Below, piece by piece: positions 47,473 through 59,630 of a DNA stretch of 64,000 nucleotides (position 1 is its first letter; every line of letters begins with the position of its first letter). The stretch comes from Geopsychrobacteraceae bacterium (GTDB taxonomy: Bacteria; Desulfobacterota; Desulfuromonadia; Desulfuromonadales; Geopsychrobacteraceae): assembly GCA_963664385.1 (NCBI GenBank), contig OY761157.1:1207634-1271633 (forward strand). The letters run 5' to 3'. Under the pieces are notes generated by a model, which saw only the letters and a program-made list of their open reading frames with translations, was not told the origin of the DNA and made no database searches. Position numbers and translations under genes: made by a program.

Positions 47473-47502
47473 CCCTGGAAACCTCGATTGAGGTCTCCAG
47501 GG
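47473..47502 (-). terminator. Hairpin after the mini-ferredoxin gene
   Basis: 13-bp stem with one mismatch (CCCTGGAAACCTC/GAGGTCTCCAGGG) and a 4-nt loop, 12 nt after the stop. Confidence 0.5.
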
Positions 47503-47513
47503 AAACATTCCAA

Positions 47514-47849
47514 TTAAGGAACGAAGATAGTAGTTTTTGGACCCAGTTCAGCAGCTCTTTGAGCCAATTCTTCGAGGGTACCATACTCCATGCACTGTGA
47601 CAGGCAGTGATGCACGCAAGAAGGTTTCTTGCCAGCAGCAGTACGATCTGCACACAGGTCACAAAGCTGAGTTGGAACAGCAACATAATCCCACTCAAAT
47701 TTGCCAGGGGTAACTTCCCATGGGCCATTTTCTACGAGCTTGATGCCCCACTTGCCGATTGGCAGCTTGAGATGATTCTTACATGCGACCTCACAGCTGT
47801 GGCAGCCAGTACACCATTGGTAATTAATCAACAATCCGTTTTTGGACAT
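47514..47849 (-). CDS. Small (111-aa) 4Fe-4S ferredoxin-like electron-transfer subunit
   Basis: CTGCHSCEVAC (CxxCxxCxxxC) plus a second Cys group, CDLC..C..C..C. Sits directly downstream of the molybdopterin oxidoreductase gene. Confidence 0.8.
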   Translation of the reverse strand: MSKNGLLINYQWCTGCHSCEVACKNHLKLPIGKWGIKLVENGPWEVTPGKFEWDYVAVPTQLCDLCADRTAAGKKPSCVHHCLSQCMEYGTLEELAQRAAELGPKTTIFVP

Positions 47850-47973
47850 TTTGTTCCTCCAATCATCATAGTTTTCGGTTCGGAAGCAACTTCCGTTCCC
47901 TCAAGCGTTGCCGGTCCGGGTCGAACAGTATCGGCCCGAGACCGGCCAATCAAATGCAAACAGACTCTGTTTC

Positions 47974-50268
47974 TTAAGCAGTAATTACGACGTCGTCGAA
48001 GTTCTGCAGTCTGGATGCCTTACAGATCATTTGCTTGAGCGGAGCACCGAAACCAAGCTTACCGATATGCTTATGGGGCACCATGTTGTTGACGTTGGAC
48101 TGCCATACGCCGAACAGGTTTGGCTCTTCGCCATCTTGCTCTGGGAACCACCAGCCGTGAGTTGCGTGAACAACTTTTGGATGGATGGTTGGGGTGACTT
48201 TGGCTTTCATCTTAGCCTTGCCGAACATGTTCTCGAGCAGGACCCAGTCACCTTCTTTGATACCCAAGTCTTCAGCGGTAGTTGGGTGAAGCTCAACTAC
48301 TGGCCAAGGATCGATCTCACGCAGAGTAGCGATCTGACGGTGCTCTGAGTGGAAAGAGGTAACCTTACGTGCACCAGTGGTCAGAACCAGTGGATATTCT
48401 TTCCACAGTTCAGGAGTACTGATTGGGCTGTATGGTGGTTCTTTGAAGTATGGGAGAGCATCGTCGCCCCAAGCTTCGAACAGAGTTGAAGACAGCTCGA
48501 CCATACCGGTAACAGTATTGAAACCAGGCTCGCCATCACCACGGAGCAGACCTTTTTCATATTTCTTGTAGGTATACTTCGGAGTGTAAACACCCATTTC
48601 TCTCAGGCCGTTGAAGTCAACGCCCAGCTCAGGCTGGAGCTGCTGGGTAAAGAAGTCTTCAACATCTTCACATTCCCACATATCTGGGTGAAGTTTTTTA
48701 CCAAGTTCGATACAAACTTCGATATCGGAACGGGTATCACCAACACGCAGAGCCTGATTGATAGGACCAAGGGTAACTGAGTTACGGCCGAAGTGAGTAA
48801 TAACAACACCGTTGTGCTCAGCGAAGGTTGGCAGTGGCAGGAAGACATCACCGAAAGCCATAGCAGTTGGAGTCATGAAGCAGTCCTGAACAACGTTGAA
48901 TTCCAGGGTCTTCAGAGCATGATACCAACGGTCACATTGGACGGCACAAGTTGGGGTGATGAAGTTGGAGCTGTTGAACCAACCCATGCGCAGACGGTAA
49001 GGCTTGCCACTTTCGAGAGTGTCAAGAGTTTCGTCAGGGTGAGTAGTAGCCAGAGCAGTACTGAGTGCTGGCCATTCCTTAGCACCAATACGCTTGTCCC
49101 ACAGCTCGTCAGACAGGTTACGACGAGTCTCAACACGCCATTTACCCAACAGAGCAGCTGGAGGTCCGAGGGTGATACCACCAGGAACGTCGAGGTTACC
49201 AGTGATGGCAGCAAGTGACAGGATGGCATGACCCATCTGAACACCGTTAGGGTTCTCGTCAGTTGCCAGACCCCATTGGATGGAGCAAGGCTTGGAGTTA
49301 GCGATCATACGTGCACAACGGATGATCTGGTCTTCAGGTACCCAGGTAATGCCAGCAACTTTTGCTGGTGGGTATTCCTGAACACGCTCTTTCAACTCAT
49401 CAAAGCCGTAGGTCCAGTTTTCGGTGAACTCTTTATCATACAGTTCTTCGTTGATGATAACGTTCAGGAAGGCCAGAGCCAGGGCGGAGTCAGTACCAGG
49501 ACGCAGCTGACATACTTCAGCACAACGGGTACCCAACCAGGTGATCCGTGGGTCGATATGGATCATCTTGGTGCCGCGCTTCATCATATCGATGAGGGCA
49601 TGACCGAAGAAACCATCAGGGTTTGAATAAAGGGCATTTTTACCCCATTCAACGATCAGTTCAGGCAAGGTGAAGCCTGGATCGTCAAAACGCTTCTCGA
49701 AGTAACCGGCGTAGTCGATTTCAGGATAACCTGCACCGAGGATGTAATCGGTAATAGCACAGCGTGGGCCGTAGCATGACCAACCACTCAGTGGGTAACA
49801 TACGTTCGGGGTTCCGATTGAAGCAAACCCGAGAGGATAGTAGTAAAGACAAGCCTGGCGGCCGGTACCACCGAAAACGATGATAGACTCAGCGCCGTGC
49901 TTCTCTTTGTATTCTTTGATTTTAGGAACAATGATATCCCAAGCTTCATCCCAAGAGATCTTGGTCCACTTGTTCTTACCACGATCTTCCAGTTTACGTT
50001 TCATCGGGGTGGTGATACGTGAAGGGTGATGAACGTACTCTGGGAGTGACAGACATCTGACGCAAAGACGTCCGTTAGTAATTGGGTGCTCTTCGTCGCC
50101 TTCAACTTCGATGAGCTTGCCACCCTTAACAGTCAGTTTCATACCACAACCAACTGGGTGATCCCCTGGAGGTGACCAGCCACAAGTCCTTACTGTAACG
50201 GAGCCATCCTCATTTTCAGTTTTCCACTCTTTCTTCATTCGATCTTCCATTGCCATTGAATTACCCAT
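47974..50268 (-). CDS. Molybdopterin (Mo/W-bisPGD) oxidoreductase catalytic subunit, cytoplasmic, module 1
   Basis: 764 aa with DMSO-reductase-superfamily domain order and motifs (..YDKEFTENWTYGFDELKERVQEYP.., EYPLVLTTG, C-terminal beta-barrel). No twin-arginine signal. Atypical N-terminal Cys pattern. The start is ambiguous among ATGs at 50268, 50256, 50250 and 50238. Confidence 0.9.
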   Translation of the reverse strand: MGNSMAMEDRMKKEWKTENEDGSVTVRTCGWSPPGDHPVGCGMKLTVKGGKLIEVEGDEEHPITNGRLCVRCLSLPEYVHHPSRITTPMKRKLEDRGKNKWTKISWDEAWDIIVPKIKEYKEKHGAESIIVFGGTGRQACLYYYPLGFASIGTPNVCYPLSGWSCYGPRCAITDYILGAGYPEIDYAGYFEKRFDDPGFTLPELIVEWGKNALYSNPDGFFGHALIDMMKRGTKMIHIDPRITWLGTRCAEVCQLRPGTDSALALAFLNVIINEELYDKEFTENWTYGFDELKERVQEYPPAKVAGITWVPEDQIIRCARMIANSKPCSIQWGLATDENPNGVQMGHAILSLAAITGNLDVPGGITLGPPAALLGKWRVETRRNLSDELWDKRIGAKEWPALSTALATTHPDETLDTLESGKPYRLRMGWFNSSNFITPTCAVQCDRWYHALKTLEFNVVQDCFMTPTAMAFGDVFLPLPTFAEHNGVVITHFGRNSVTLGPINQALRVGDTRSDIEVCIELGKKLHPDMWECEDVEDFFTQQLQPELGVDFNGLREMGVYTPKYTYKKYEKGLLRGDGEPGFNTVTGMVELSSTLFEAWGDDALPYFKEPPYSPISTPELWKEYPLVLTTGARKVTSFHSEHRQIATLREIDPWPVVELHPTTAEDLGIKEGDWVLLENMFGKAKMKAKVTPTIHPKVVHATHGWWFPEQDGEEPNLFGVWQSNVNNMVPHKHIGKLGFGAPLKQMICKASRLQNFDDVVITA

Positions 50269-50457
50269 CCTTTCATTCTCGAATGTGAATACACAAAAAC
50301 AATCCGCAGGGTTTTTCTCTTTCGCACCTCCTTTATGCTTTTATGAATTACGGTAAATCGAAACCACGTCGCCTTCCGAATACTGTTTGTTTTCATGCAA
50401 CCTGGCAGGCTACAGCTTCGGACAACCCGGGTTCCGGTTTTGACTATGATTACAAAT

Positions 50458-50472
50458 GCTACTTATGTGCCA
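50458..50472 (-). promoter_or_regulatory. Sigma-54 promoter of module 1
   Basis: The minus strand reads TGGCACataagTAGC. The -24 element is perfect, the -12 GC is conserved, and the GG-N10-GC spacing is correct. It lies about 190 nt upstream of the ORF. Confidence 0.65.
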
Positions 50473-50531
50473 ACCGTGAATGATTTTCGGCAATTCGGTA
50501 AATACCTGTTTTTACTTGACTTTCAAAAGAT

Positions 50532-50555
50532 AGAGATTTTTTCTCAAAAATCTCT
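50532..50555. promoter_or_regulatory. Perfect 10-bp-arm palindrome upstream of the module-1 promoter
   Basis: AGAGATTTTTtctcAAAAATCTCT lies 60-83 bp upstream of the -24 element. It could be an activator or bending-protein site. Confidence 0.3.
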
Positions 50556-50884
50556 TTTTGGGATGATATTTTGAACTCTTCTTGGCTTATCAAATCATAA
50601 ACTACTGTTTTTACTATGTTCTTATTTTAAAACTAGTTATCATTTTAGGACTGTATTTATTTGCCACTGATCAATCTTCAAGATTAGAATTCGGGGAAAC
50701 AATTACGCCCCAGAATTCCTGATTTAATTGCCCAACAAGGATAAAGGTGTCACCTACCTAACTCCTGAACAAAACCTGAAACTCCTCACATCCAAGGCCG
50801 TCAACCGTTCCATGCTGGTTAAGATAAACAGTGTTTCCATCGTCCAAGCGAAAAGCACAGGCCGCACAGGAAAATCTTAACGGT

Positions 50885-50914
50885 AAAAAAAGCCTGCCGA
50901 ATAAACGGCAGGCT
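50885..50914 (-). terminator. Rho-independent terminator after the radical SAM gene
   Basis: On the minus strand, AGCCTGCCGtttattCGGCAGGCT is followed by TTTTTTT, 32 nt after the stop. Confidence 0.8.
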
Positions 50915-50945
50915 CTCAACACTCAGATTCGGACAACAAGAAGCA

Positions 50946-52259
50946 TTAAAAATTAAGATGTTTTTGCCCATGACAATTGGTCAACTGGTAGGAACAGAAC
51001 GGCACCAATCTCCCTTCCGGCCCGGCAACTGTCATACTACACTGCTGCAGACGCTTCAGATCCATACTGTCAGCATCCATATAATTCATAATCAGAATGG
51101 AAACACCTGGCTCAATATCAGGATACATACGTGCAGCGATATCCGGCATGACTGAGCCCTGAGGGCTGGACGGATCAAAATGATCAAGATACTCATCAAT
51201 ACTGATCTGCCGACTCACAGGTTGAAAGCCATCAGGTGTTCGCACCACATAGGTGGTGGAATCGCATAACGGGTGAGAACAACCGGTCGGCCAGAAATCG
51301 TAAGGTTCAACAATTCCATCACTCTGCTCGGATAACTTGAAAACAACATCACCCATGGTCAGTGGTGGATTATCATGAACATCAAAGCGTCCTGAACCAA
51401 ATGCCGGCTGATACGCGACACCAGCAATAACATCACGATTTTCGAGAGCAAATTTTAAAACATCTCCCATCTGCTCTTCATTGGTTCCACTGATAACTGC
51501 CATAGCCAGAACCACCTGAATCCCGGCTGCCCGGCAATTTTCAATCGCCCGAAGCTTCAGCTTGGCAAGATTAGCGCCTCGCACTTTACGGAACACCTCA
51601 TCAGTCAAGCCATCGAACTGCATATAGATACCGGTAATACCGGCATCGATAAGCTTTTGCAAAAAATCGGGATTACGACCGATCACAACACCATTGGTGT
51701 TAACCTCAATAGCGCTGAAACCAATCTCACGACAAAGACGCACAATGTCAGGCAGATCCTCACGCACGGTTGGCTCACCACCGGTCAATTGAATACTGGT
51801 ATTGGCTCCACTCTGCTCGAGGATACTACGCAATTGGGCCTCGATAACGTCAAGAGACAAATCGGTATTGATGGCAGTCTCATTGCCATCAGCGGCCATG
51901 AAACAGACCGGACAACGTAAATTACAGCGCTGAGTAAGTTCAATTTCAACCAGGCGAGGATGGTGTTGATGCTTGTTGCACAGGCCACACGCTGAAGGGC
52001 ACTCTTCGGTAGATTGATGCACTTTTTCCGGTGCTACATGGGGAAATTTAAAGTTTTTCAGCCAGACATAATGCTCTTCATCAGGCCAGAGGTAGGTAGA
52101 GTAAAAACCATGTTCAGGGCACTCCTTATCCATAAACACAGTATTATCACGAACAACAATCTGAGCAGTAAGAACCTTGAGACATTCAGGACATACGCTT
52201 TGTGTTGTTTCGAGAACCTTAAGCGATTGCGACACTTTATTAACGACTGCTGTTGACAT
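50946..52259 (-). CDS. Radical SAM enzyme with an N-terminal Cys-rich (zinc-ribbon-like) extension
   Basis: CNLRCPVCF (CxxxCxxC) radical SAM motif. N-terminal CPEC..(x19)..CPEHG and CPSACGLC. AAGGAAG lies 8 nt upstream of the ATG. The gene is bracketed by two terminators. Confidence 0.85.
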   Translation of the reverse strand: MSTAVVNKVSQSLKVLETTQSVCPECLKVLTAQIVVRDNTVFMDKECPEHGFYSTYLWPDEEHYVWLKNFKFPHVAPEKVHQSTEECPSACGLCNKHQHHPRLVEIELTQRCNLRCPVCFMAADGNETAINTDLSLDVIEAQLRSILEQSGANTSIQLTGGEPTVREDLPDIVRLCREIGFSAIEVNTNGVVIGRNPDFLQKLIDAGITGIYMQFDGLTDEVFRKVRGANLAKLKLRAIENCRAAGIQVVLAMAVISGTNEEQMGDVLKFALENRDVIAGVAYQPAFGSGRFDVHDNPPLTMGDVVFKLSEQSDGIVEPYDFWPTGCSHPLCDSTTYVVRTPDGFQPVSRQISIDEYLDHFDPSSPQGSVMPDIAARMYPDIEPGVSILIMNYMDADSMDLKRLQQCSMTVAGPEGRLVPFCSYQLTNCHGQKHLNF

Positions 52260-52479
52260 AACAACAACTTCCTTGAAGAGAAATAGCAGCGAACTGCTTC
52301 ATTTAATAAACAACCAGAACGACAAGATACAGATGATATTAAATATCAGTAAATTTTGACCCGTATTGCATAATCGGAGGAGGGCAAGCGTTTGAGCGGA
52401 GGCATAACAAGGTATACCGCACAGACAAAGGCGAAGCCCGGCACCAATTCGCAACAAAAGGGCTTTTCAGATTAAAAGT

Positions 52480-52527
52480 AAAAAAAGGGCGTTACCGGAA
52501 AGAAGGGGATAGAGGTCCGGTAACGCC
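52480..52527 (-). terminator. Rho-independent terminator of the module-2 operon
   Basis: Perfect 12-bp stem GGCGTTACCGGA/TCCGGTAACGCC, then CTTTTTTT on the minus strand, 22 nt after the membrane-subunit stop. Confidence 0.85.
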
Positions 52528-52548
52528 ATCGACATTACAGCAAAACTA

Positions 52549-53478
52549 TTACATCCAGGCTTTTTTCAAAAAGTCTTCCTGCCCTTGAGGTAACCGGCTA
52601 CGGTACTTCAATTCACCAGGCATGAAGGTCCGGTCGGTACCACTCTGAACGGTCATCATCCGCATAGTAACGCCGCCGAACAGTACGAACAAAGCGCCGA
52701 TAGCAGCAGTAGCAGTAAATGGAATAATCGTCAGGACCAAAGGAACGACGGTACCAAGAACCAGAAAAGAGATCTTGAAACTGGAGGCCATATCACCACT
52801 GATCCAGCGCTGAGCGGCAGCACTTTCTACCGTAGTGGTACCAGTTTGCTTAATCCACAGATAACCGATCCACAGAACGGCCTGTGCAAACAGCAATGCA
52901 GCCATAATACCAGGCATGGCAGCCCATACCTGCTCAGAAACAGGAGCAGAGACCAGCAGGCCACAGATATAGTGAGCAGCAGCGGCCGTCACCAGGGAAG
53001 ACAGCAGGAACAAAGCCATGATGCCAGGACCAGTCCAGAAGGGACGCCCTTTATGGCGACCAAGCAGAACCCCGGGATAGGTCGCAACAACCAGCCCGGT
53101 AACAACATTGACAATCGCCAGCAGGACCCTTAAAAAGCCCCAGTCACGCCAGAAGAACAGAGCCCAATCGATACCGAAAGAGGCATAGATAAATCCGGAA
53201 ATAATAGCAAATGTCATCATCCAGGCGCCAAAGGTCAGAATCGCCTTAGGATTCATAAAGACACGCCAGGCCTGCAGCGGCCGACCCAATTCAAGAATCA
53301 GGAAACCACAGCCCACGCACATGCAGAGAGGACCAACAATATTACCCAACAGGGATGTCATTCCTGGTCCGACAAACAGATCCGTCAATCCGGCAATGAT
53401 CAGCATAGCGCCACCCATTCCCGCAAAGAAGAAATCGACGGCCAGCATCCAGCCCCAAGTTTGATGTTTCTCGCTCAT
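52549..53478 (-). CDS. NrfD/PsrC/DmsC-type integral membrane quinone-interacting subunit
   Basis: 309 aa with about 8 TM helices. The N-terminal WGWMLAVDFFFAGMGGA pattern is typical of NrfD-family anchors. Confidence 0.8.
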   Translation of the reverse strand: MSEKHQTWGWMLAVDFFFAGMGGAMLIIAGLTDLFVGPGMTSLLGNIVGPLCMCVGCGFLILELGRPLQAWRVFMNPKAILTFGAWMMTFAIISGFIYASFGIDWALFFWRDWGFLRVLLAIVNVVTGLVVATYPGVLLGRHKGRPFWTGPGIMALFLLSSLVTAAAAHYICGLLVSAPVSEQVWAAMPGIMAALLFAQAVLWIGYLWIKQTGTTTVESAAAQRWISGDMASSFKISFLVLGTVVPLVLTIIPFTATAAIGALFVLFGGVTMRMMTVQSGTDRTFMPGELKYRSRLPQGQEDFLKKAWM

Positions 53479-53494
53479 CGTAAATCTCCCCTAG

Positions 53495-54037
53495 TTAAAT
53501 AAGGTAATAAACAGCGGGTTGCGTATTCAGCTCAGGAAGCATCTGAATATACTGATTTTCTTTAATCAGCTTATAAACCTCGCTGTTCTCATCTTCAATA
53601 TCACCAAAGATCCGGGCCTTCTGGTGACAGGTTGCCACACAGTGTGGAACCATACCCTGATCTACACGGTCCATACAGAAGTTGCATTTGTTAACAGCGC
53701 CAGTCTCATGGTTATGATAACGAGCACCATAAGGACAAGCCATTACACAGGATAAGCAACCAACACACTTCTTGTCCTCAACATGGACAATGCCGTCTTC
53801 GCGCTGCACTGAAGCACCGGTAGGACAGGCATCAACGCATGGCGAATTATCACAATGCATACAGATCAGTGGCAAAAACCGTGAATGGAGGTTCGGGAAA
53901 GTCCCGTGGGGGCCATCCTGAACAACTGGATTGTACACCATATCTGTAGGCAGTTCGTTATGAACCTTACAAGCGACAGTACAGGAGTGGCAACCAATAC
54001 AGCGCCGGGTATCCATGACAATTACGTAACGGGCCAT
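53495..54037 (-). CDS. Four-cluster 4Fe-4S ferredoxin subunit (DmsB/PsrB/NrfC type)
   Basis: Four Cys groups (CIGCHSCTVAC, CMHCDNSPCVDAC, CVGCLSCVMAC, CNFCMDR..C..C). No signal peptide. Confidence 0.9.
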   Translation of the reverse strand: MARYVIVMDTRRCIGCHSCTVACKVHNELPTDMVYNPVVQDGPHGTFPNLHSRFLPLICMHCDNSPCVDACPTGASVQREDGIVHVEDKKCVGCLSCVMACPYGARYHNHETGAVNKCNFCMDRVDQGMVPHCVATCHQKARIFGDIEDENSEVYKLIKENQYIQMLPELNTQPAVYYLI

Positions 54038-54038
54038 C

Positions 54039-56282
54039 TTAATTTACCTCCTTGCTGTCAACCTTGTAGACACGACACAGCAGACCACGGTTCGCCCATG
54101 AGCCACTATACGGATCACAGTGCTCATCAGCAGTACTGGTCAGCATATTTCCGTTTGACTCCAATGCGCCGCCAAGTTCACCACCCAGAGGGATATCGCG
54201 CATATCTTTTTCAGGGAACCACCAGCAGCGTTGAGTGTAGATCACTTTTGGATGGATCGCTTCTGTCAGGTTAGCGCGCTGCTTCATACGTCCACGTGCA
54301 GTTTCAACCCAGCACCAGTCACCATCTTCGATACCCATCTCGGCGGCAGTGCGGGGGTTGATATCAAGGAACGGAGAATGCTTGATAAAGCGCATATCCT
54401 TGATCTGATAGTGCTCGGAATGGTGGAATGGCATGAATCCACCACCTGTGGTGAGGACCAATGGATATTTTTCAGCCAGCTCAGGATGGTCAATCTCATT
54501 CTCGGTAGGGCCGACATATTCTGGCAATGGTGGATAGCCTAACTCTTTAAGAGTTGTGGAATAAAGCTCAACCTTACCAGACGGAGTTGCGAAGCCCTGG
54601 CGCTTATACTTGTAGTACTCACGCTCAGGGAAGTGGAAACGAATATTCTCAACAAATTCGTCCCAGCTCGAGACCGGATGGCCAATCGGCTCAATGGCAC
54701 TGTAGTAAGCTTCTTCAACAGTTTTCCATGGCCAGTTTTCTTCCTGACCAAGCGCAACACCAAGATCGCGCCAGAAGTTGAAGTCGTTACGCCGCTCATA
54801 CATGGGCTGAATAGCACGCTGAGAACCGAGCATGAAGTCAGCACAACCATAACTGTTGGTAATAATTGGCCGCTCAAGAGCACCAGCAATCGGCATGATG
54901 TAGTCAGCAAACATTGCTGACGGAGTCACCCAGTAATCACAGGCAACCATAAAATCGACCTTCCGCAGAGCCTCAAGAACGACTGGAGTCTCACCGTAAG
55001 AAGCCAATGGATTGGTTGCTGAAATCATCAAAGCCTTGACCGGGTAGGGGTCACCGGTAGCGATGGCACGGAATACTGATGGTGGGTGAGCCTCACACAT
55101 CCATTCCGCAGTCGGTACCTTACCCCAGGTTTTTCTGGTCAGTTCACTGATTTTGCTGTAACCCGGCCAGGTAACCAATTTAAATTTATCGGAACCGATC
55201 TGCTTGGCGCGCTGCTCTTCAGGCAGGAACTTGTTCCCTTCCATCTCCTCATCGGTTAGATAATCCTGAGAAGGCCCGGTCAACAGGTCAGCACCAGGAC
55301 AATCAAGGTTACCGGTCAACGCACGCAGCAGCGCACGGGCATGCATGGTGGCACCAGCAGGACGACCGATCTGGTCGACGGAAGTACCCCACTGAATATT
55401 ACCCGGCTTATTCATGGCGTACATGTGAGCACCTTCACGAATCTGGTCAGGGGTCAACCAGGTCAGCTCGGCAGCCCACTCAGGTGAGAAGTCAACAACG
55501 TGTTCAGCCAACTCCTGGAAGCCTTCACAGTGCTCAAGAACAAACTCCTGATCCATCAGACCTTCATAGATAATGACATGAATCCAGGCCAGCGCCAGAG
55601 CCAAGTCAGAACCTGGCCGCAGCGGCAACCACAGATCAGCCTTTTCAGCAGATTCGGTAAAACGAGGATCGATAACAATAACCTTCATCCCCTTAGCCTG
55701 AAGGTCGTGGATATGATGTGCTTCCGGCATGCCTGAAGCACCGGGGTTCTGCCCCCACAAAACAATACAACGACTCTGACCGATATCCAGGTCAAATGGG
55801 CACCAACCGTAAATAGCAGTTTCCACCATAAAGGTTGGAATCCAGCACAAGTGCGCATTATGGAAACCGTTTGGACTACCAAACAGGTTCATAAAACGCC
55901 GCCGTGCCCAGTCGTCGGTACGCTGAGTACCGCCAGCAGTGGCAACAGCTTCTGCGCCGAATTGCTCACGAATAGAAGACAGCTTGGCAGCGATTTCGGA
56001 AATCGCTTGATCCCAGGGAATCTGCTCCCATTTTCCCTCACCACGCTTACCAACACGCTTAAGCGGATGATTGACCCGATCAGGGTGATTCAGGTGCTTA
56101 AGTGCGATATTACCGCGGCAGCACAGTCCCCCCTGGTTGGTCGGGAATTCAGGATCGCCTTCAATCTTCAGAACTTCGTTGTCTTTGACGTAGGCCAAAA
56201 CGCCGCAATTCTGGTGACAGAAATAGCAGGCTGACTTTTTAACCTCTACGCCCTCTTGATTCAAATCCACTTGTGTACTCAT
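54039..56282 (-). CDS. Molybdopterin (Mo/W-bisPGD) oxidoreductase catalytic subunit, no Tat signal, module 2
   Basis: Canonical N-terminal 4Fe-4S motif CYFCHQNC..(x27)..C, starting 19 residues from the ATG at 56282 (GAGAGGA upstream). Paralogous to module 1 (EKYPLVLTTGG etc.). Confidence 0.9.
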   Translation of the reverse strand: MSTQVDLNQEGVEVKKSACYFCHQNCGVLAYVKDNEVLKIEGDPEFPTNQGGLCCRGNIALKHLNHPDRVNHPLKRVGKRGEGKWEQIPWDQAISEIAAKLSSIREQFGAEAVATAGGTQRTDDWARRRFMNLFGSPNGFHNAHLCWIPTFMVETAIYGWCPFDLDIGQSRCIVLWGQNPGASGMPEAHHIHDLQAKGMKVIVIDPRFTESAEKADLWLPLRPGSDLALALAWIHVIIYEGLMDQEFVLEHCEGFQELAEHVVDFSPEWAAELTWLTPDQIREGAHMYAMNKPGNIQWGTSVDQIGRPAGATMHARALLRALTGNLDCPGADLLTGPSQDYLTDEEMEGNKFLPEEQRAKQIGSDKFKLVTWPGYSKISELTRKTWGKVPTAEWMCEAHPPSVFRAIATGDPYPVKALMISATNPLASYGETPVVLEALRKVDFMVACDYWVTPSAMFADYIMPIAGALERPIITNSYGCADFMLGSQRAIQPMYERRNDFNFWRDLGVALGQEENWPWKTVEEAYYSAIEPIGHPVSSWDEFVENIRFHFPEREYYKYKRQGFATPSGKVELYSTTLKELGYPPLPEYVGPTENEIDHPELAEKYPLVLTTGGGFMPFHHSEHYQIKDMRFIKHSPFLDINPRTAAEMGIEDGDWCWVETARGRMKQRANLTEAIHPKVIYTQRCWWFPEKDMRDIPLGGELGGALESNGNMLTSTADEHCDPYSGSWANRGLLCRVYKVDSKEVN

Positions 56283-56458
56283 AGTTCCTCTCTTCAGGTC
56301 ATCCAGGTTCTTATTGAAAAGATCTTTCCATGCTGACCATAGTGAACCTGACAGCATAAAAATTTCCTGCCCAGCACATTCGGGTTATTGCTCATCAATC
56401 ATCACAAAATCAAAATAACCTTTTGGTGGCGATCAGAACGATACCGCGCTGGTATTGT

Positions 56459-56473
56459 GCAACTTGCAGGCCA
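56459..56473 (-). promoter_or_regulatory. Sigma-54 promoter of module 2
   Basis: The minus strand reads TGGCCTgcaagTTGC. GG-N10-GC spacing is correct, the -12 TTGC is perfect and the -24 element has two mismatches. It lies about 175 nt upstream of the ATG and just downstream of the EBP terminator. Confidence 0.55.
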
Positions 56474-56667
56474 AAGACTTTTAATCAGCCATTTCCAGGT
56501 ATGGTAAAAATTTGGGGAAGTATCAGAGGGATAAGGAAAAACCGGCAGTAAAACATGATTAGACCACCCTTTTTTCCGGCCAGGAAAGGCTCGTAAAGGG
56601 CACTTGAAAACAACAAGGATAAATCTTTTTTTGCGATCCCAGTTTCATTTTGAGACCTTGTCACCAT

Positions 56668-56704
56668 AAAAAAACGACCCGTGATAAAAGCTTTTCAGGG
56701 TCGC
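56668..56704 (-). terminator. Terminator after the EBP gene
   Basis: On the minus strand, CGACCC..(17-nt loop)..GGGTCG is followed by TTTTTTT, 36 nt after the stop. Confidence 0.6.
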
Positions 56705-56739
56705 CCTTAAAGTACTTCAAAGCAATTTCAGAGAGGGGA

Positions 56740-58896
56740 TCAGACCACCTCGATCTTGTATTCCTTCAACTTCCGGTACAGGGTCGAACGGCTCAGACCA
56801 ACCATTTCAGCGGCCGTCGGAATGCAATTATTAGCTCGCAGCAACGCGGCCTCAATAGCAGCTTTTTCAATATTCTTAAGACACAGATTCTCACTCCCAA
56901 AACCACTGAAACTGGAGATATCATCAGCCTTGACCGGACTGGAATCCATAAGAATATAACGAGGAAGATTATGCGGCTCGATAACACTGCCGGTAACCGT
57001 ATTAATGGCGTGATGCATAGCGTTCTGCAACTGACGAACATTCCCTGGCCAGCGGTATTCATTGAGGATCCGCTCAACTTCAGAGCTGATTTCCGGCACC
57101 TCCCACCCTTGTTTCTGGCAGTAGGCATCGACAAAAGACTTCCCAAGCAGAGAGACATCCTTGTGCCGCTCACGCAAGGCGGGAATATACACAGTCAGAA
57201 CCGATATCCGATAATAAAGGTCTTCCCGGAAGGTCCCTTCCTCGACCATCTTCATCAGATCCTTATTGGTTGCAGCCAATAACCGAAAATCAACCTCTTT
57301 ATAGCGATTACCACCAATCCGCATGACCTTCTTGTCCTGCAGAGTTCTCAGCAGGATAGCCTGATGCTCGAGGGGCATATCACCAATCTCATCAAGGAAC
57401 AGAGTCCCGCCATGAGACAATTCTATCTTACCCGCCTTACCACAGCGCTCAGCACCGGTAAAACTGCCCCCCTCGTAACCGAATAGTTCGCTACCGACCA
57501 GCTCCCGGGGCAAAGCAGCGCAGTTAACGGCCATGAACGGGCCATCAGGCCGGAAGGTGTTATGGATGGAATGAGCAAACAGCTCTTTGCCGGTCCCGCT
57601 TTCACCAATGAGCAGAATATTTTCCGGAGACCCGGCAAAACGCTTAGCCTGAGCTATGGAGGTCTTAATTTCAGGGCTTTCACCCTGAATATCATTAAAG
57701 GTATAAGTTGCGGAACGCCCGGAACGGCTGTTGATCTGAGTGGCCAGCTTCTCACAGTTTATGAACTTGAGAATAACAACGTCCAGCTCCTTGGTATACT
57801 GGTTCATAACTGGCCGTGCGGAGATGCGATAAGCCTTGGCCTTATTACTTCCGACCTTGACACACTCCTCAAGAGTGAAACTCTCCCCCTTCTGAGCGCG
57901 CCGCATAATCATCGATTCGGCACCAAGGAATTCCCGGATATTACGGTTACCAGCCTCTTCTGGACGAACCTTGAAAATCCGAATGGCCTCGTTATTTATC
58001 TGCAGAATTTTGCCGCGCTTATCAACCGCAACCATCCCCTCATCAATAAAAGCAAAAGAGGCTGTCAGGGTTTTATGCACGCTGACCATTTTATCCCGGG
58101 CATTCTGCAGTTCACCGTTAAGACGGTCAATGTCACGACAGGCACAATCATAATCGTTACCGGCTTTGATACATTTGAGCTGCGTCTCAACCGCAACCGC
58201 GAGAGAAGAAATCAGCCCCAGGGTATGCATATAAAGATGGTTGATATTGTCATCATCAAGGGAATCGATCAGTGGCGGACTGAGAATAACCAGGGCGGCA
58301 TTCACCTCGCCGTTGGCATCGATAACCGGTGCCGCAGAGGCGATCCGGTTCTGCAGGGGAATACAATAATTTTCAGGTCCCAGCAACTGCACAGGACGTT
58401 TCAGACGGATACACAGCTCATGGGCTGAGGTCCCCTGATTTTCTTCATCGGCCAGAATACCGATCCGCGACCCGGTCGCCGAGATTTCCGGATCTTCAGC
58501 CCACACCCCCTCATGAAGCAGAATCAGACCCGAACGGTCAAAAAGGTAAAACAGATAACCGCAATCGACCATCTGCGGCTTAAAAGGCTGGATAAGTTTA
58601 GTTGTAATATCAATAAGTTGGCGATGCTTATCGCGAACTTTTGAAAGCTTGTCCTCACTTGGAATGGTGGAAACCTTGTAGGGATTCACACCCAACCGCC
58701 GGGAACGCATCCATGAGGCAGCAACCTCCTGATCCATACAGGGGTTTTTGCTCGGATCTTCCATGCGGTTGTTGAAGAAGTCTTCTTTACAGCGAAGAAT
58801 TGCCTGCCATCGTTCTTTGGTCAGTTTTTCCCTGCTTGCTCTGGCAAAAAGAACCTGTGCTCCCAGAATATCTGAGATCTGCTCTTTTAAATCCAT
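56740..58896 (-). CDS. Sigma-54-dependent activator, AcoR-like (GAF-like N-domain + PAS + AAA+ + HTH)
   Basis: Intact EBP core (GESGTGKE, GSFTGA, GGTLFLDEI, RERHKD). C-terminal HTH (AAEMVGLSRSTLYRKL). The ~230-aa N-domain resembles AcoR-type sensors. Confidence 0.9.
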   Translation of the reverse strand: MDLKEQISDILGAQVLFARASREKLTKERWQAILRCKEDFFNNRMEDPSKNPCMDQEVAASWMRSRRLGVNPYKVSTIPSEDKLSKVRDKHRQLIDITTKLIQPFKPQMVDCGYLFYLFDRSGLILLHEGVWAEDPEISATGSRIGILADEENQGTSAHELCIRLKRPVQLLGPENYCIPLQNRIASAAPVIDANGEVNAALVILSPPLIDSLDDDNINHLYMHTLGLISSLAVAVETQLKCIKAGNDYDCACRDIDRLNGELQNARDKMVSVHKTLTASFAFIDEGMVAVDKRGKILQINNEAIRIFKVRPEEAGNRNIREFLGAESMIMRRAQKGESFTLEECVKVGSNKAKAYRISARPVMNQYTKELDVVILKFINCEKLATQINSRSGRSATYTFNDIQGESPEIKTSIAQAKRFAGSPENILLIGESGTGKELFAHSIHNTFRPDGPFMAVNCAALPRELVGSELFGYEGGSFTGAERCGKAGKIELSHGGTLFLDEIGDMPLEHQAILLRTLQDKKVMRIGGNRYKEVDFRLLAATNKDLMKMVEEGTFREDLYYRISVLTVYIPALRERHKDVSLLGKSFVDAYCQKQGWEVPEISSEVERILNEYRWPGNVRQLQNAMHHAINTVTGSVIEPHNLPRYILMDSSPVKADDISSFSGFGSENLCLKNIEKAAIEAALLRANNCIPTAAEMVGLSRSTLYRKLKEYKIEVV

Positions 58897-59630
58897 GCAG
58901 TCCTCCTTCTACTTTGAAGTACCTTGGATCTTGTTTTTCGCTACACCCTGAACCACATCGTTACTTTACGGCTGCAAACATTAAGCCTGAAAAACAATCA
59001 ATCTCTCCGATCAGCGATTCTTCATTTCAAAACACTATAAAAAATAGTTTATTTAAAGTGAAAAAATTTTCAAACAATATTTCAAATGCTCACTTAATCA
59101 GCAGAGGCGCCATTATAACATAAGAGTCATTGTTTACCATAAAAAGAAAGTAACAGGTAGGCATCGTGGACAAAAACAGAAAAAAACGCATTAAAATAGA
59201 TACTTAACAAAAACCTACAAAAACTAGATTAAAATAAGACAGAGGCCAAAGTCAATAAGATTTCAGACAAACAGGATTTAACCAGCTGACAGATTTACCC
59301 AAAAACGCCCTGTCTATCAAGAGCAACAAAGCAGTTTCAAAATGACACAGCCAGCGCGAGACATTCTCAAAATAACACACTTGCAGGCCAGCATCATCTA
59401 CGCAGCAGCCATCGTTTAATATGGCCACCGAATAATTACTTATCCCTTTCTGCAACCTATCTTTAGCTCATCACCTTCCCCCCTGCGACTCAAACCTGTC
59501 ACCTTCATACACATATTTTTATCGTCGTCAAAAACAGCTTCCAGATATTGGGAAATCAACAGGTTAACCTGCCAATTACTGAAAACACCAAAGCAATGCA
59601 AAGTCATTATCAATCCCCTCCCTGTCTCCG

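What the first reader, a model, noticed from the sequence alone, without database searches (positions are those of the whole stretch)
47473..58896. Sigma-54/AcoR-type controlled island with two paralogous Tat-less Mo/W-bisPGD oxidoreductase modules of unknown substrate
All genes in the island are co-directional, in this order:
- an AcoR-like EBP
- a terminator
- a sigma-54 promoter (TGGCCTgcaagTTGC)
- a 747-aa bisPGD subunit, a four-cluster ferredoxin and an NrfD-type membrane subunit
- a strong terminator
- a stand-alone radical SAM gene
- a terminator
- a sigma-54 promoter (TGGCACataagTAGC)
- a 764-aa paralogous bisPGD subunit and a 111-aa mini-ferredoxin
- a terminator

From my recollection of family sequences (not a search), both catalytic subunits resemble the acetylene-hydratase / polysulfide-reductase-like clade. 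The resemblance rests on YDKEF.ENW.YGF.ELKERVQEYP and EYPLVLTTG. Neither subunit has a twin-arginine signal, which argues against the classical periplasmic respiratory reductases.

The island is flanked by an aromatic-acid-type MFS, a TetR regulator, an OFA-type MFS and Moco biosynthesis genes on both sides. Sigma-54 plus an AcoR-type sensor usually marks an inducible catabolic pathway for a small organic molecule. No substrate can be named from the sequence.
Basis: partly seen in the sequence, partly recalled or inferred. Interest (0 to 1): 0.72.

Follow-up and report, generated by a model that had tools for sequence, protein, structure and literature searches.

The report
Sigma-54-controlled catechol-dehydroxylase-like molybdoenzyme island
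This is a real gene island, conserved across bacterial phyla and switched on through sigma-54, that encodes two cytoplasmic molybdenum/tungsten enzymes of the acetylene-hydratase / catechol-dehydroxylase clade; it most likely acts on an imported phenolic acid, so it is a new variant of a recently described enzyme class and not an unknown kind of system.

Summary
The host is a Geopsychrobacteraceae (Desulfuromonadales) genome.

The 764-aa subunit and its 111-aa two-cluster ferredoxin fall, with 100% bootstrap support, in the clade of "Gordonibacter-type" catechol dehydroxylases (41% identity to Dodh and Cldh). They share that clade's sequence signatures and its operon layout: a cytoplasmic catalytic subunit, a small Fe-S protein, two MFS transporters and a regulator.

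The 747-aa subunit belongs to a separate orthologous group nearer to acetylene hydratase, but it lacks that enzyme's catalytic Asp. It sits with a four-cluster ferredoxin and an NrfD anchor and has no Tat signal. It is linked to a Tes/HMPTM-family radical SAM gene in five phyla.

Sigma-54 control is well supported. Promoter matches lie upstream of orthologues in 42 of 79 loci, against about 3 expected. Conserved upstream boxes are shared by three promoters.

The substrate remains unknown; a catecholic aromatic acid is the best guess. The class was already reported in Geobacter and Desulfitobacterium, so novelty is moderate. The radical SAM linkage and the cytoplasm-facing membrane module are the new parts.

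The parts
56740..58896 (-). Sigma-54 enhancer-binding protein, 718 aa: uncharacterised N-terminal sensor region, PAS domain, AAA+ sigma-54 interaction domain and HTH_8
   Evidence: Pfam hits. The best NCBIfam matches, PrdR and DhaR, score below their cut-offs. The N-terminal 280 aa have no Pfam match. Orthologues at 47-57% identity sit next to bisPGD-2 orthologues in Bacillota.
56611..56655 (-). Candidate EBP-binding sites (UAS) upstream of P1: TCTCAAAATGAAAC and GATCGCAAAAAAAGATTT, plus the 13-mer TTTATCCTTGTTG
   Evidence: Both boxes are invariant or nearly so in six Desulfuromonadales loci. Related boxes lie upstream of P2 and P3.
56458..56473 (-). Sigma-54 promoter P1 (TGGCCTGCAAGTTGCA)
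   Evidence: A -24/-12 match lies upstream of bisPGD-1 orthologues in 10 of 17 loci and is aligned.
54039..56282 (-). bisPGD-1, 747 aa: Mo/W bis-pyranopterin catalytic subunit with no Tat signal, a canonical CxxCHxxC..C cluster motif and a Cys metal ligand
53495..54037 (-). Four-cluster [4Fe-4S] ferredoxin subunit, 180 aa, with no Tat signal
   Evidence: Fer4_11 in Pfam; similar to TtrB, DsrO and NrfC but below their cut-offs.
52549..53478 (-). NrfD/PsrC-type integral membrane subunit, 309 aa, the presumed quinol/quinone site
   Evidence: Pfam NrfD and NrfD_2.
52488..52527 (-). Intrinsic terminator after the NrfD gene
   Evidence: A 12-bp stem followed by a T-run; -21.1 kcal/mol, z -5.84.
50946..52259 (-). 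Radical SAM enzyme, 437 aa, of the Tes/GDGT-MAS, HMPTM and TrsS family: N-terminal zinc ribbon and two CxxxCxxC motifs. A stand-alone transcription unit with no sigma-54 promoter.
   Evidence: The closest solved structure is 7TOL at 257 bits. Orthologues at 55-88% identity. It is linked to bisPGD-1, the ferredoxin and NrfD. No sigma-54 motif lies upstream in any of 25 loci.
50888..50917 (-). Intrinsic terminator after the radical SAM gene
   Evidence: -21.5 kcal/mol, z -5.69.
50548..50650 (-). Candidate UAS boxes upstream of P2: TCCTAAAATGATAAC and ATCCCAAAAAGAGATTT
   Evidence: Conserved blocks in the six-locus alignment; coordinates.
50457..50472 (-). Sigma-54 promoter P2 (TGGCACATAAGTAGCA)
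   Evidence: A -24/-12 match lies upstream of bisPGD-2 orthologues in 42 of 79 loci, against a background of 0.04 per 610 nt.
47974..50268 (-). bisPGD-2: 764-aa ORF, with the likely start at 50238 giving 754 aa. Cytoplasmic catalytic subunit of the Gordonibacter-type catechol dehydroxylase clade.
47514..47849 (-). Mini-ferredoxin, 111 aa. It keeps only Cys groups I and IV of the DmsB-type four-cluster fold, which predicts two [4Fe-4S] clusters.
   Evidence: Both ends match DmsB-type models. A homologue lies next to the bisPGD-2 orthologue, directly downstream in nearly all, in all but one of the fetched loci.
47473..47502 (-). Terminator after the mini-ferredoxin gene
   Evidence: -26.3 kcal/mol, z -6.4.
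46830..46976 (-). Conserved 48-aa lysine-rich small ORF between the mini-ferredoxin and MFS genes
   Evidence: The protein is near-identical to one at the same position in Desulfuromonas acetoxidans.
45237..46538 (-). MFS transporter, 433 aa, of the OFA/monocarboxylate (SfMCT) type
   Evidence: NCBIfam SfMCT at 418 bits, above its cut-off of 320. Homologues lie in 41 loci.
44499..45083 (-). TetR-family regulator between the two transporter genes
   Evidence: It is conserved at this position only in Desulfuromonadales.
43065..44411 (-). MFS transporter, 448 aa, of the aromatic-acid/H+ symporter type (similar to MhpT and PcaK)
   Evidence: TIGR00895 at 335 bits, MhpT at 272 and PcaK at 268, all below their cut-offs. 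Homologues lie in 42 loci.
40724..42862 (-). Methyl-accepting chemotaxis protein with a dCache sensor; a possible chemoreceptor for the same compound
   Evidence: Distant homologues (24-28% identity) sit beside the module in Sporomusa loci.
59335..59378 (+). Two UAS boxes, TTTCAAAATGACAC and TCTCAAAATAACAC, in the divergent intergenic region
   Evidence: Conserved in all aligned Desulfuromonadales loci.
59631..59646 (+).
   Evidence: Present upstream of the GNAT gene in 8 of 8 loci.
59789..61676 (+). Divergent operon: GNAT acetyltransferase (163 aa), MBL-fold hydrolase (262 aa) and flavin-reductase-like protein (199 aa)
   Evidence: Pfam. Homologues of the MBL protein, the flavin reductase and the GNAT recur beside the module in Desulfitobacterium, Desulfosporosinus, Peptococcaceae, D. 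acetoxidans and Raoultibacter.
61741..63922 (+). MoaA and a DUF2064 protein, providing cofactor supply. DUF2064 recurs in related loci.
   Evidence: DUF2064 homologues appear in 14 loci and in L086.
37171..40340 (-). MobB, MoaE, MoeA and a MoCF-domain protein, for bis-MGD cofactor biosynthesis
   Evidence: The same genes flank the Dehalobacter locus.

Best explanation
The island is an inducible sigma-54 regulon for the anaerobic transformation of an imported phenolic compound, most likely a catecholic aromatic carboxylic acid, by molybdenum or tungsten bis-pyranopterin enzymes of the acetylene-hydratase / catechol-dehydroxylase clade.

Shown:
- The gene content, the absence of Tat signals, and the clade placement.
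- The shared active-site signatures.
- The cross-phylum synteny.
- Three conserved -24/-12 promoters with shared upstream boxes.

Inferred:
- The compound enters through the aromatic-acid/H+ type and monocarboxylate-type MFS transporters.
- It is sensed by the N-terminal/PAS region of the EBP. The EBP binds the TCTCAAAATGAAAC-like boxes and activates P1, P2 and P3.
- bisPGD-2 and its two-cluster mini-ferredoxin form a soluble cytoplasmic heterodimer. It removes a ring hydroxyl group reductively, as Gordonibacter Dodh, Cldh and Hcdh do. Its electrons possibly come from the co-regulated flavin-reductase-like protein.
- bisPGD-1, the four-cluster ferredoxin and NrfD form a cytoplasm-facing membrane complex. 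It links a second, related oxygen-atom transfer on the same or the next intermediate to the menaquinone pool.
- The radical SAM enzyme is constitutively or separately expressed. It is an accessory to the bisPGD-1-type enzymes, either as a maturase or as a pathway step.

The exact substrate is not known.
For: Clade placement:
- bisPGD-2 is 41% identical to Dodh and Cldh (542 and 529 bits), against 32% and 266 bits to acetylene hydratase.
- A neighbour-joining tree puts bisPGD-2 orthologues with Cldh, Dodh and a third Gordonibacter-type sequence from the published alignment at 100% bootstrap support.

Shared signatures (reference sequences):
- W[ST]xPGxH replaces the first half of the cluster motif.
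- CxxPR follows the metal-ligand Cys.
- FHSEHR lies at the position of acetylene hydratase Phe611.
- bisPGD-1 also carries HSEH.

Architecture: a cytoplasmic catalytic subunit, a small Fe-S protein, two MFS transporters and a substrate-specific regulator. This matches the published description of Gordonibacter-type enzymes (PMC7028382; PMC11887054).

Other points:
- The bisPGD-2/mini-ferredoxin pair is present in all but one of the fetched loci.
- Sigma-54 promoters: 42 of 79 loci against about 3 expected; P3 in 8 of 8 loci.
- Conserved upstream boxes.
- The block of bisPGD-1, ferredoxin, NrfD and radical SAM gene is conserved in Desulfuromonadota, Bacillota, Chloroflexota and Actinomycetota.
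Against: - No member of either orthologous group has been characterised. Identity to characterised dehydroxylases is 41%, far below the roughly 72% at which substrates are shared (PMC11585353).
- bisPGD-1 groups with acetylene hydratase (86% bootstrap) and not with the dehydroxylases. It lacks the CxxPR motif.
- Some Coriobacteriia orthologues of bisPGD-2 have lost every cluster-ligand Cys. A purely redox role would not predict this.
- No downstream ring-reduction or ring-cleavage genes lie in the window. It is therefore unclear whether the compound is catabolised or only used as an electron acceptor.
- Nucleoside hydrolase and phosphodiesterase-type MBL neighbours in some loci could point to a non-phenolic substrate.
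- The tree is neighbour-joining on a small sample.
Confidence: 0.5

Rival explanations
1. Hydroxyl-shuffling catabolic pathway. bisPGD-1, its ferredoxin and NrfD work oxidatively. Like resorcinol hydroxylase, they would add a water-derived hydroxyl group to the ring and pass the electrons to menaquinone. bisPGD-2 removes another hydroxyl group. The net effect is a transhydroxylation that produces a resorcinol- or phloroglucinol-type ring that can be dearomatised. This would be an analogue of the sequential transhydroxylations reported, to my knowledge, for Pelobacter massiliensis, a relative of this organism.
For: - There are two different Mo/W enzymes in one regulon, one coupled to quinone and one soluble.
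- The host belongs to the Geopsychrobacteraceae. From my own knowledge, that lineage includes fermenters of trihydroxybenzenes.
- bisPGD-1 is phylogenetically separate from the reductive dehydroxylases.
- The cytoplasmic orientation suits a catabolic enzyme.
Against: - Known ring hydroxylases and transhydroxylases are only distant relatives. Pyrogallol transhydroxylase scores 48 bits against bisPGD-1.
- No downstream dearomatising genes lie in the window.
- The same gene set occurs in gut Coriobacteriia, which use such enzymes reductively (PMC11585353).
Confidence: 0.2
2. One or both enzymes are non-redox. They would be a hydratase or isomerase like acetylene hydratase, and the Fe-S subunits would be structural or regulatory, as in pyrogallol transhydroxylase.
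For: - Acetylene hydratase is the closest solved structure for both subunits.
- bisPGD-1 clusters with it.
- Several bisPGD-2 orthologues have lost all four cluster Cys while keeping the mini-ferredoxin.
Against: - The catalytic Asp13 of acetylene hydratase is His in bisPGD-1, and the position is deleted or replaced in bisPGD-2.
- The residues of the hydrophobic ring (Ile142, Phe611, Trp179 and Trp472 regions) are not conserved.
- bisPGD-1 has a complete electron-transfer chain to a quinone-site subunit.
- Characterised clade members of bisPGD-2 are viologen-dependent reductases (PMC11585353).
Confidence: 0.1
3. Respiratory or detoxifying reductases for an inorganic or small polar oxyanion or oxide (sulfur, selenium or arsenic species, N- or S-oxides), as the PhsA, PsrA, TtrB and NrfD family names would suggest.
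For: The best NCBIfam names are PhsA, TtrB and NrfD, and JGI labels some orthologues 'thiosulfate/polysulfide reductase chain A'.
Against: - Every one of these scores is far below its family cut-off.
- There is no Tat signal, so the active sites face the cytoplasm.
- Both subunits are much closer to acetylene hydratase and the dehydroxylases than to the polysulfide-reductase-type outgroup in the tree (24% and 23% identity).
- The conserved partners are aromatic-acid and monocarboxylate transporters.
Confidence: 0.05

Closest known systems
Gordonibacter-type catechol dehydroxylases (Dodh, Cldh, Gp Hcdh, Gs Vadh; Maini Rekdal et al. 2020, PMC7028382; Bae et al. 2024, PMC11585353; Dong et al. 2025, PMC11887054)
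   Same: - bisPGD-2 lies in their clade (100% bootstrap; 41% identity).
- It has the same unusual N-terminal W[ST]xPGxH motif, the CxxPR motif and the FHSEHR motif.
- It has no Tat signal and a similar size of about 750-800 aa.
- It is partnered with a small Fe-S protein, next to two MFS transporters, and under a dedicated regulator.
   Different: - The host is a Desulfuromonadota bacterium and not a gut actinobacterium.
- The regulator is a sigma-54 EBP in place of LuxR- or LysR-type regulators.
- The first cluster-ligand Cys is replaced by Asp36, and an extra Cys29 is present.
- Identity is too low to infer the substrate.
- The module is embedded in a larger conserved gene set: bisPGD-1, ferredoxin, NrfD, radical SAM enzyme, MBL-fold hydrolase and flavin reductase.
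Acetylene hydratase of Pelobacter (Syntrophotalea) acetylenicus (PDB 2E7Z)
   Same: - It is the best solved-structure match for both subunits. bisPGD-1 is 36% identical over the full length (433 bits by HMMER).
- It shares the Cys metal ligand, the [4Fe-4S] motif (bisPGD-1), the absence of a Tat signal and the size.
   Different: - Acetylene hydratase is a monomer with no partner subunits.
- Its essential Asp13 is His in bisPGD-1.
- Ile142 is Trp in bisPGD-1, and FQSCYH is HHSEHY there.
- The window enzymes have ferredoxin partners, and bisPGD-1 also has a membrane partner.
Eggerthella-type catechol dehydroxylases (Dadh, Hcdh, Cadh)
   Same: They have three subunits, as the bisPGD-1 module does: a catalytic subunit, a four-cluster ferredoxin and a membrane anchor. 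They share the HSEH motif.
   Different: - The Eggerthella enzymes carry Tat signals and are exported.
- Their catalytic subunits are 1000-1200 aa.
- They group with the bisPGD-2 side of the tree and not with bisPGD-1.
- Identity to bisPGD-1 is only about 28-31%, in separate segments.
PsrABC/PhsABC polysulfide/thiosulfate reductase and SoeABC-type cytoplasm-facing complexes
   Same: The bisPGD-1 module has the same A-B-C subunit plan with a haem-less NrfD-type anchor. From my own knowledge, SoeABC is also cytoplasm-facing and lacks a Tat signal.
   Different: The catalytic subunit is much closer to acetylene hydratase (433 against 265 bits). Psr and Phs are periplasmic and Tat-exported.
Tetraether lipid synthase Tes / GDGT-MAS (PDB 7TOL) and the methanopterin pterin methylase HMPTM
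   Same: The radical SAM protein shares the N-terminal zinc ribbon, the radical SAM core and 257 bits to 7TOL over residues 17-331.
   Different: It scores below the Tes and TrsS family cut-offs. It has a different C-terminal part. It is genetically tied to molybdoenzymes and not to lipid or methanopterin genes.

Membership tests
Acetylene hydratase (functional family) | Catalytic Asp13 next to the second cluster Cys (C-x2-C-D) | tested here: not met
   bisPGD-1 has CYFCHQNC, with His at that position. In bisPGD-2 this segment is replaced by WSPPGDHPVG.
Acetylene hydratase (functional family) | Cys141 as the metal ligand | tested here: met
   The Cys is aligned in both subunits: AHLCWIPT in bisPGD-1 and GWSCYGPR in bisPGD-2.
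Acetylene hydratase (functional family) | Hydrophobic ring around the substrate (Ile142, Trp179, Trp472, Phe611) | tested here: not met
   Ile142 is Trp in bisPGD-1 and Tyr in bisPGD-2. Phe611 is His in bisPGD-1, and although bisPGD-2 keeps Phe at that aligned position the following QSCYH is replaced by HSEHR. The Trp179 and Trp472 positions are not conserved.
Acetylene hydratase (functional family) | Monomeric enzyme with no electron-transfer partner | tested here: not met
   Both subunits are followed by ferredoxin genes, and bisPGD-1 also by NrfD.
Gordonibacter-type catechol dehydroxylase (for bisPGD-2) | The catalytic subunit falls in the Cldh/Dodh clade of bis-MGD enzymes | tested here: met
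   41% identity and 529-565 bits. The clade has 100% support in 200 neighbour-joining bootstraps.
Gordonibacter-type catechol dehydroxylase (for bisPGD-2) | No Tat signal, a smaller catalytic subunit, and a co-encoded small Fe-S protein | tested here: met
   The sequence. The 111-aa mini-ferredoxin accompanies the bisPGD-2 orthologue in all but one of the fetched loci.
Gordonibacter-type catechol dehydroxylase (for bisPGD-2) | Adjacent MFS transporters and a dedicated regulator | tested here: met
   The two MFS families occur in 41-42 loci. The regulator is an EBP or a LuxR-type protein depending on the phylum.
Gordonibacter-type catechol dehydroxylase (for bisPGD-2) | Clade-specific sequence signatures, derived here from the published alignment: W[ST]xPGxH, CxxPR and FHSE[HW]R | tested here: met
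   These signatures are my own reading of few sequences and are not a curated definition.
Gordonibacter-type catechol dehydroxylase (for bisPGD-2) | Reductive removal of a catechol hydroxyl group, demonstrated biochemically | not testable with these tools
   This needs an enzyme assay.
Gordonibacter-type catechol dehydroxylase (for bisPGD-2) | At least about 72% identity to a characterised member, the isofunctional cluster cut-off of Bae et al. 2024 | tested here: not met
   41% to Dodh and Cldh.
Catechol dehydroxylase, any type (for bisPGD-1) | Placement in the dehydroxylase clade and the CxxPR and HSEH motifs | tested here: inconclusive
   It groups with acetylene hydratase and the paralogues next to the radical SAM gene (86%), not with the dehydroxylases. 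It has HSEH but CWIPT in place of CxxPR.
Eggerthella-type catechol dehydroxylase (for bisPGD-1) | Tat signal peptide and an exported, membrane-anchored complex | tested here: not met
   Neither bisPGD-1, its orthologues nor the ferredoxin has a Tat motif.
Sigma-54-dependent operon | A -24 GG / -12 GC promoter with correct spacing, a cognate EBP gene nearby, and conservation in orthologous loci | tested here: met
   RpoN dependence itself has not been tested experimentally.
AcoR-type EBP | GAF-type N-terminal sensor as in AcoR and DhaR | tested here: inconclusive
   No Pfam domain is found in residues 1-280 even at E = 1. DhaR aligns over residues 50-717 at 306 bits, below its cut-off of 551.
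Tes / TrsS / HMPTM radical SAM families | Score at or above the curated NCBIfam cut-off | tested here: not met
   TrsS scores 382 against a cut-off of 490, and Tes scores 336 against 450. The family-level relationship is clear.

The most novel reading that the evidence does not exclude
The radical SAM enzyme is related to a pterin C-methylase (HMPTM) and to the C-C bond-forming Tes. In five phyla it travels with the bisPGD-1-type and 'third paralogue' molybdoenzymes, and often with DUF2064 and MobA-like nucleotidyltransferases.

The most novel reading is that it is a dedicated maturase that modifies the pyranopterin cofactor or the enzyme. Alternatively, it performs a radical C-H or C-C step on the aromatic substrate.

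Either way, the whole cluster would be an undescribed, widely distributed anaerobic pathway that rearranges ring hydroxyl groups through a cytoplasm-facing, quinone-coupled molybdoenzyme.
Probability: 0.15. Interest if true: 0.8.

Novelty: new variant of a known kind. Interest (0 to 1): 0.5.

Why it matters
Catechol dehydroxylases have so far been characterised only in gut Coriobacteriia. Their wide distribution in environmental anaerobes has been noted, but no environmental member has a known substrate.

This island shows that one specific orthologous pair, bisPGD-2 and its mini-ferredoxin, is kept at 55-98% identity from marine Desulfuromonadales to acetogens, organohalide respirers and gut actinobacteria. 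That degree of conservation argues for a single common substrate.

The island also links this pair to three further elements:
- A second molybdoenzyme lineage that is uncharacterised, cytoplasm-facing and coupled to quinone.
- A Tes-like radical SAM enzyme.
- A defined sigma-54 regulon with recognisable operator boxes.

Together these give a practical route to finding the inducer and substrate, for example with reporter fusions to P1, P2 and P3 in a genetically tractable Geobacter or Desulfitobacterium. The same route would test how a soluble dehydroxylase is supplied with electrons. If the substrate is a lignin- or tannin-derived phenolic acid, the system bears on anaerobic turnover of plant aromatics in sediments.

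Tried and rejected
- No curated equivalog applies. Every NCBIfam hit for the seven island proteins is below its cut-off, so the PhsA, TtrB, NrfD, TrsS and Tes names were rejected as assignments.
- An exact-sequence look-up of the window's bisPGD-2 found nothing.
- Literature searches for the Desulfitobacterium hafniense Y51 locus tags (DSY3525-3532), and for acetylene hydratase together with radical SAM and sigma-54, found nothing relevant. The TrsS search led only to a selenoprotein preprint with no bearing on this locus.
- An Rfam scan found no riboswitch or leader in the island.
- The small protein that follows the mini-ferredoxin in 25 other loci (cluster c5) has no homologue in the window.
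- A window-wide search for the upstream box is not significant on its own: 8 matches against 9 expected at three mismatches. The case for the boxes therefore rests on cross-species conservation.
- The 13-mer TTTATCCTTGTTG shared by the P1 and P2 upstream regions is not conserved in relatives, so I give it little weight.
- No sigma-54 promoter was found upstream of the radical SAM, MFS448, MBL or EBP genes.
- The first bootstrap run with Biopython timed out. I replaced it with a numpy Kimura-distance neighbour-joining bootstrap.
- I did not run structure prediction. The sequence evidence settled the clade question, and no dehydroxylase structure exists for comparison.

Full report
**1. Observation**

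| Gene | Coordinates | Size | Evidence |
|---|---|---|---|
| EBP | 58896..56740 | 718 aa | PAS, Sigma54_activat, AAA_lid_14, HTH_8 |
| bisPGD-1 | ORF from 56357; 747-aa form from 56282 to 54039 | 747 aa | Molybdop_Fe4S4, Molybdopterin, Molydop_binding |
| Ferredoxin | 54037..53495 | 180 aa | Fer4_11, four-cluster type |
| NrfD | 53478..52549 | 309 aa | NrfD, NrfD_2 |
| Radical SAM | 52259..50946 | 437 aa | Radical_SAM plus HMPTM-type zinc ribbon |
| bisPGD-2 | 50268..47974 | 764 aa | same three domains as bisPGD-1 |
| Mini-ferredoxin | 47849..47514 | 111 aa | matches only the two ends of DmsB-type models |

- The 747-aa start of bisPGD-1 matches the 743-750 aa of its orthologues.
- Orthologues of bisPGD-2 start at Met11.
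- The mini-ferredoxin keeps Cys groups I and IV, so I predict two [4Fe-4S] clusters.
- Both quoted -24/-12 strings are present, at 56473..56458 and 50472..50457.
- The hairpins after NrfD, the radical SAM gene and the mini-ferredoxin are strong: -21.1, -21.5 and -26.3 kcal/mol, all with z below -5.6. The one after the EBP is weak.
- None of the catalytic or ferredoxin N-termini has a twin-arginine motif.
- The flanks are as described.

**2. Organism and conservation**

A scan of one genome per species found more than 560 relatives of bisPGD-2. The best match (98%) is a Geopsychrobacteraceae MAG chromosome.

bisPGD-2 orthologues (55-98% identity) occur in these groups:
- Desulfuromonadales
- Sporomusa and Selenomonadales
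- Desulfitobacterium and Desulfosporosinus
- Peptococcaceae
- Moorellaceae
- Syntrophomonas
- Coriobacteriia

In all but one of the fetched loci a homologue of the 111-aa ferredoxin lies beside the bisPGD-2 orthologue, in nearly all cases directly downstream. Two MFS families accompany the pair in 41-42 loci.

The regulator differs by phylum. It is a sigma-54 EBP at 47-57% identity in Bacillota and Desulfuromonadota. It is a membrane LuxR/GerE-type protein in Coriobacteriia, where no sigma-54 EBP or conserved -24/-12 site accompanies the genes (from my own knowledge, Actinobacteria lack sigma-54).

bisPGD-1 is a second, equally conserved orthologous group (62-89% identity). It always has the four-cluster ferredoxin and NrfD with it. 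It is linked to the radical SAM gene in all of these:
- Desulfitobacterium hafniense
- Desulfuromonas acetoxidans
- Dehalobacter
- an Anaerolineales MAG
- Coriobacteriia

Coriobacteriia orthologues carry a C-terminal extension but still have no Tat signal. In Bacillota, Chloroflexota and Coriobacteriia a third bisPGD paralogue follows or lies near the radical SAM gene. The window lacks it and has a 677-bp spacer there.

**3. Family placement**

No NCBIfam model reaches its cut-off for any of the seven proteins. Among solved structures, acetylene hydratase 2E7Z is best for both subunits, at 433 and 267 bits. The Thermus polysulfide/thiosulfate reductase is next, at 265 and 174 bits.

The literature describes a clade of catechol dehydroxylases whose nearest characterised relative is acetylene hydratase. 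It includes cytoplasmic, two-subunit 'Gordonibacter-type' enzymes encoded next to MFS transporters. Homologues were already noted in Geobacter and Desulfitobacterium (PMC7028382; PMC11887054; PMC11585353).

I recovered the Cldh, Dodh, Dadh and acetylene hydratase sequences from the published alignment. The transcribed acetylene hydratase is 730 aa, which, to my knowledge, is the published length of the enzyme. BLASTP results:

| Query | Reference | Identity | Bits |
|---|---|---|---|
| bisPGD-2 | Dodh | 41.3% | 542 |
| bisPGD-2 | Cldh | 40.7% | 529 |
| bisPGD-2 | third Gordonibacter-type sequence | 41.3% | 565 |
| bisPGD-2 | acetylene hydratase | 31.7% | 266 |
| bisPGD-1 | acetylene hydratase | 35.6% | 408 |
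| bisPGD-1 | Gordonibacter-type enzymes | 32-34% | 348-374 |

A neighbour-joining tree (715 columns, 200 bootstraps) gave these groupings:
- bisPGD-2 orthologues form a clade (99%).
- That clade joins Cldh, Dodh and their relative at 100%, and Dadh at 94%.
- bisPGD-1 orthologues form a clade (100%).
- That clade joins the paralogues next to the radical SAM gene (100%) and acetylene hydratase at 86%.

**4. Active-site signatures**

| Feature | Acetylene hydratase | bisPGD-1 | bisPGD-2 | Dehydroxylases |
|---|---|---|---|---|
| N-terminal cluster motif | C-x2-C-D-x2-C | C-x2-C-H-x2-C (Asp13 is His) | W-S-P-P-G-D-H insertion replaces C-x2-C | W-[ST]-x-P-G-C-H in Cldh and Dodh |
| After the metal-ligand Cys | CIGNT | CWIPT | CYGPR | CxxPR in Cldh, Dodh and Dadh |
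| At the Phe611 position | FQSCYH | HHSEHY | FHSEHR | FHSE[HW]R |

- The metal-ligand Cys is kept in all of them.
- The paralogues next to the radical SAM gene lack the HSEH motif.
- Neither window enzyme is an acetylene hydratase.
- bisPGD-2 meets every sequence and context criterion I could test for the Gordonibacter-type dehydroxylases, except closeness to a characterised member.
- bisPGD-1 shares only part of the signature, so its chemistry is less certain.
- In bisPGD-2 the possible cluster ligands are Cys29 or Asp36, Cys41, Cys69 and Cys72. Some Coriobacteriia orthologues have lost all of them.

**5. Regulation**

The -24/-12 pattern occurs upstream of bisPGD-2 orthologues in 42 of 79 loci, that is, in most of the non-actinobacterial loci. 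The background is 0.04 per equivalent stretch, or about 3 expected. It occurs upstream of bisPGD-1 orthologues in 10 of 17 loci.

It lies 158 bp upstream of a divergent operon encoding a GNAT acetyltransferase, an MBL-fold hydrolase and a flavin-reductase-like protein. It is present in 8 of 8 loci that have the GNAT gene.

Alignment of six Desulfuromonadales loci shows conserved boxes 150-200 bp upstream of the promoters:
- P1: TCTCAAAATGAAAC and GATCGCAAAAAAAGATT.
- P2: TCCTAAAATGATAC-like and ATCCCAAAAAGAGAAT-like.
- P3: two copies, TTTCAAAATGACAC and TCTCAAAATAACAC.

I take these to be the EBP-binding sites. This is an inference.

The radical SAM gene has terminators on both sides and no sigma-54 promoter in any of 25 loci. 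It is therefore expressed separately. The EBP's first 280 residues match no Pfam domain, so 'AcoR-type' is unproven.

**6. Accessory genes**

The following recur beside the modules in Bacillota and Coriobacteriia:
- the MBL-fold hydrolase
- the flavin-reductase-like protein
- the GNAT
- DUF2064
- CCG-domain (HdrD-like) proteins
- DUF169-Fer4 proteins
- in some loci, a nucleoside hydrolase

In the window it runs from about 43065 (or 40724 if the chemoreceptor is counted) to at least 61676. Cofactor genes extend it to 37171 and 63922.

The MFS448 transporter is of the aromatic-acid/H+ type, similar to MhpT and PcaK. MFS433 passes the SfMCT monocarboxylate model.

The radical SAM protein's closest structure is the tetraether synthase 7TOL (257 bits). 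It has two CxxxCxxC motifs and a zinc ribbon.

**7. Most likely mechanism and rivals**

The best-supported reading (confidence about 0.5) has these steps:
- An imported phenolic acid induces the three promoters through the EBP.
- The soluble bisPGD-2/mini-ferredoxin heterodimer removes a ring hydroxyl group reductively.
- The membrane-bound bisPGD-1 complex faces the cytoplasm and couples a related oxygen-atom transfer to the quinone pool.
- The radical SAM enzyme is an accessory.

The rivals are:
- An oxidative role for bisPGD-1 in a hydroxyl-shuffling pathway (0.2).
- Non-redox chemistry like that of acetylene hydratase (0.1).
- Inorganic oxyanion reduction (0.05).

No ring-reduction or ring-cleavage genes lie elsewhere in the window.

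**8. Novelty and verdict**

The enzyme class and its presence in Geobacter and Desulfitobacterium are published. What appears new is:
- The recognition of two tightly conserved cross-phylum orthologous groups.
- The Tat-less, NrfD-anchored module.
- Its linkage to a Tes-like radical SAM enzyme.
- The three-promoter sigma-54 regulon with shared upstream boxes.

I rate the island a new variant of a known kind, with interest 0.5.

Noticed in passing
window 46830-46976 (-): A 48-aa lysine-rich ORF (MSENTPKKVKKPIDPLAAKPGQNYGSTKFKPSKEYEGGNITFKEEDKK) lies in the AT-rich spacer between the mini-ferredoxin and MFS433 genes. It is almost identical to a 47-aa ORF at the same position in Desulfuromonas acetoxidans (L083:14643-14786). 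It is probably a real small gene of unknown function.
   Followed up: partly
window 50321-50334 (-) and the roughly 200-nt leader of bisPGD-2: The block AAAGGAGGTGC(G/A)A, about 70 nt upstream of the bisPGD-2 start codon, is invariant in six Desulfuromonadales loci, as is the stretch just before the start. It looks like a strong ribosome-binding site with no obvious ORF behind it. No Rfam family matches.
   Followed up: partly
window 56611-56623 (-) and 50733-50745 (-): The exact 13-mer TTTATCCTTGTTG occurs upstream of both P1 and P2 in the window (chance about 0.004), but it is not conserved in related genomes.
   Followed up: partly
window 50269-50945; loci L017, L019-L021, L084, L085, L086: In Bacillota, Chloroflexota and Coriobacteriia a third bisPGD paralogue follows or lies near the radical SAM gene. 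It forms its own 100%-supported clade, sister to acetylene hydratase, and lacks the HSEH motif. The window has only a 677-bp spacer there, so this lineage has lost it or never had it.
   Followed up: partly
window 40724-42862 (-): A dCache-type methyl-accepting chemotaxis protein sits between the transporter genes and the cofactor genes. Distant homologues sit beside the bisPGD-2 module in several Sporomusa genomes, which hints at chemotaxis towards the same compound.
   Followed up: no
window 26622-26911 (+): An Rfam match to the Helicobacter 5' ureB sRNA (107 bits) lies antisense inside the urease alpha-subunit gene (25355-27064, minus strand). It most likely reflects conservation of the urease coding sequence and not an sRNA.
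   Followed up: no
window 27864-37011: A urease accessory gene and a urea/branched-chain-type ABC transporter operon lie divergent from a second sigma-54 EBP, whose sensor is a periplasmic-binding-protein-like domain (34894-37011, plus strand). Back-to-back -24/-12 matches lie at 34623 (-) and 34665 (+).
   Followed up: no
window 3908-8263: A third sigma-54 EBP, with a PrpR_N sensor (3908-5848, minus strand), lies divergent from a PdxA-like dehydrogenase and an iron-type alcohol dehydrogenase. A -24/-12 match at 5972 (+) lies 80 nt upstream of the first of these genes.
   Followed up: no
window 15766-23112 (-): A complete type I restriction-modification system is present: HsdM, two specificity-type ORFs and HsdR.
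   Followed up: no
loci L001, L014, L084: An inosine-uridine-type nucleoside hydrolase gene sits inside the conserved cluster in Desulfitobacterium, Desulfosporosinus and Dehalobacter, but is absent from the window. A phenolic-acid substrate does not explain it.
   Followed up: no
proteins P0108 and P0120, and loci L056-L082: Many Coriobacteriia orthologues of bisPGD-2 have lost all four putative [4Fe-4S] ligands in the catalytic subunit while keeping the mini-ferredoxin partner. This raises the question of how electrons reach the metal centre.
   Followed up: partly
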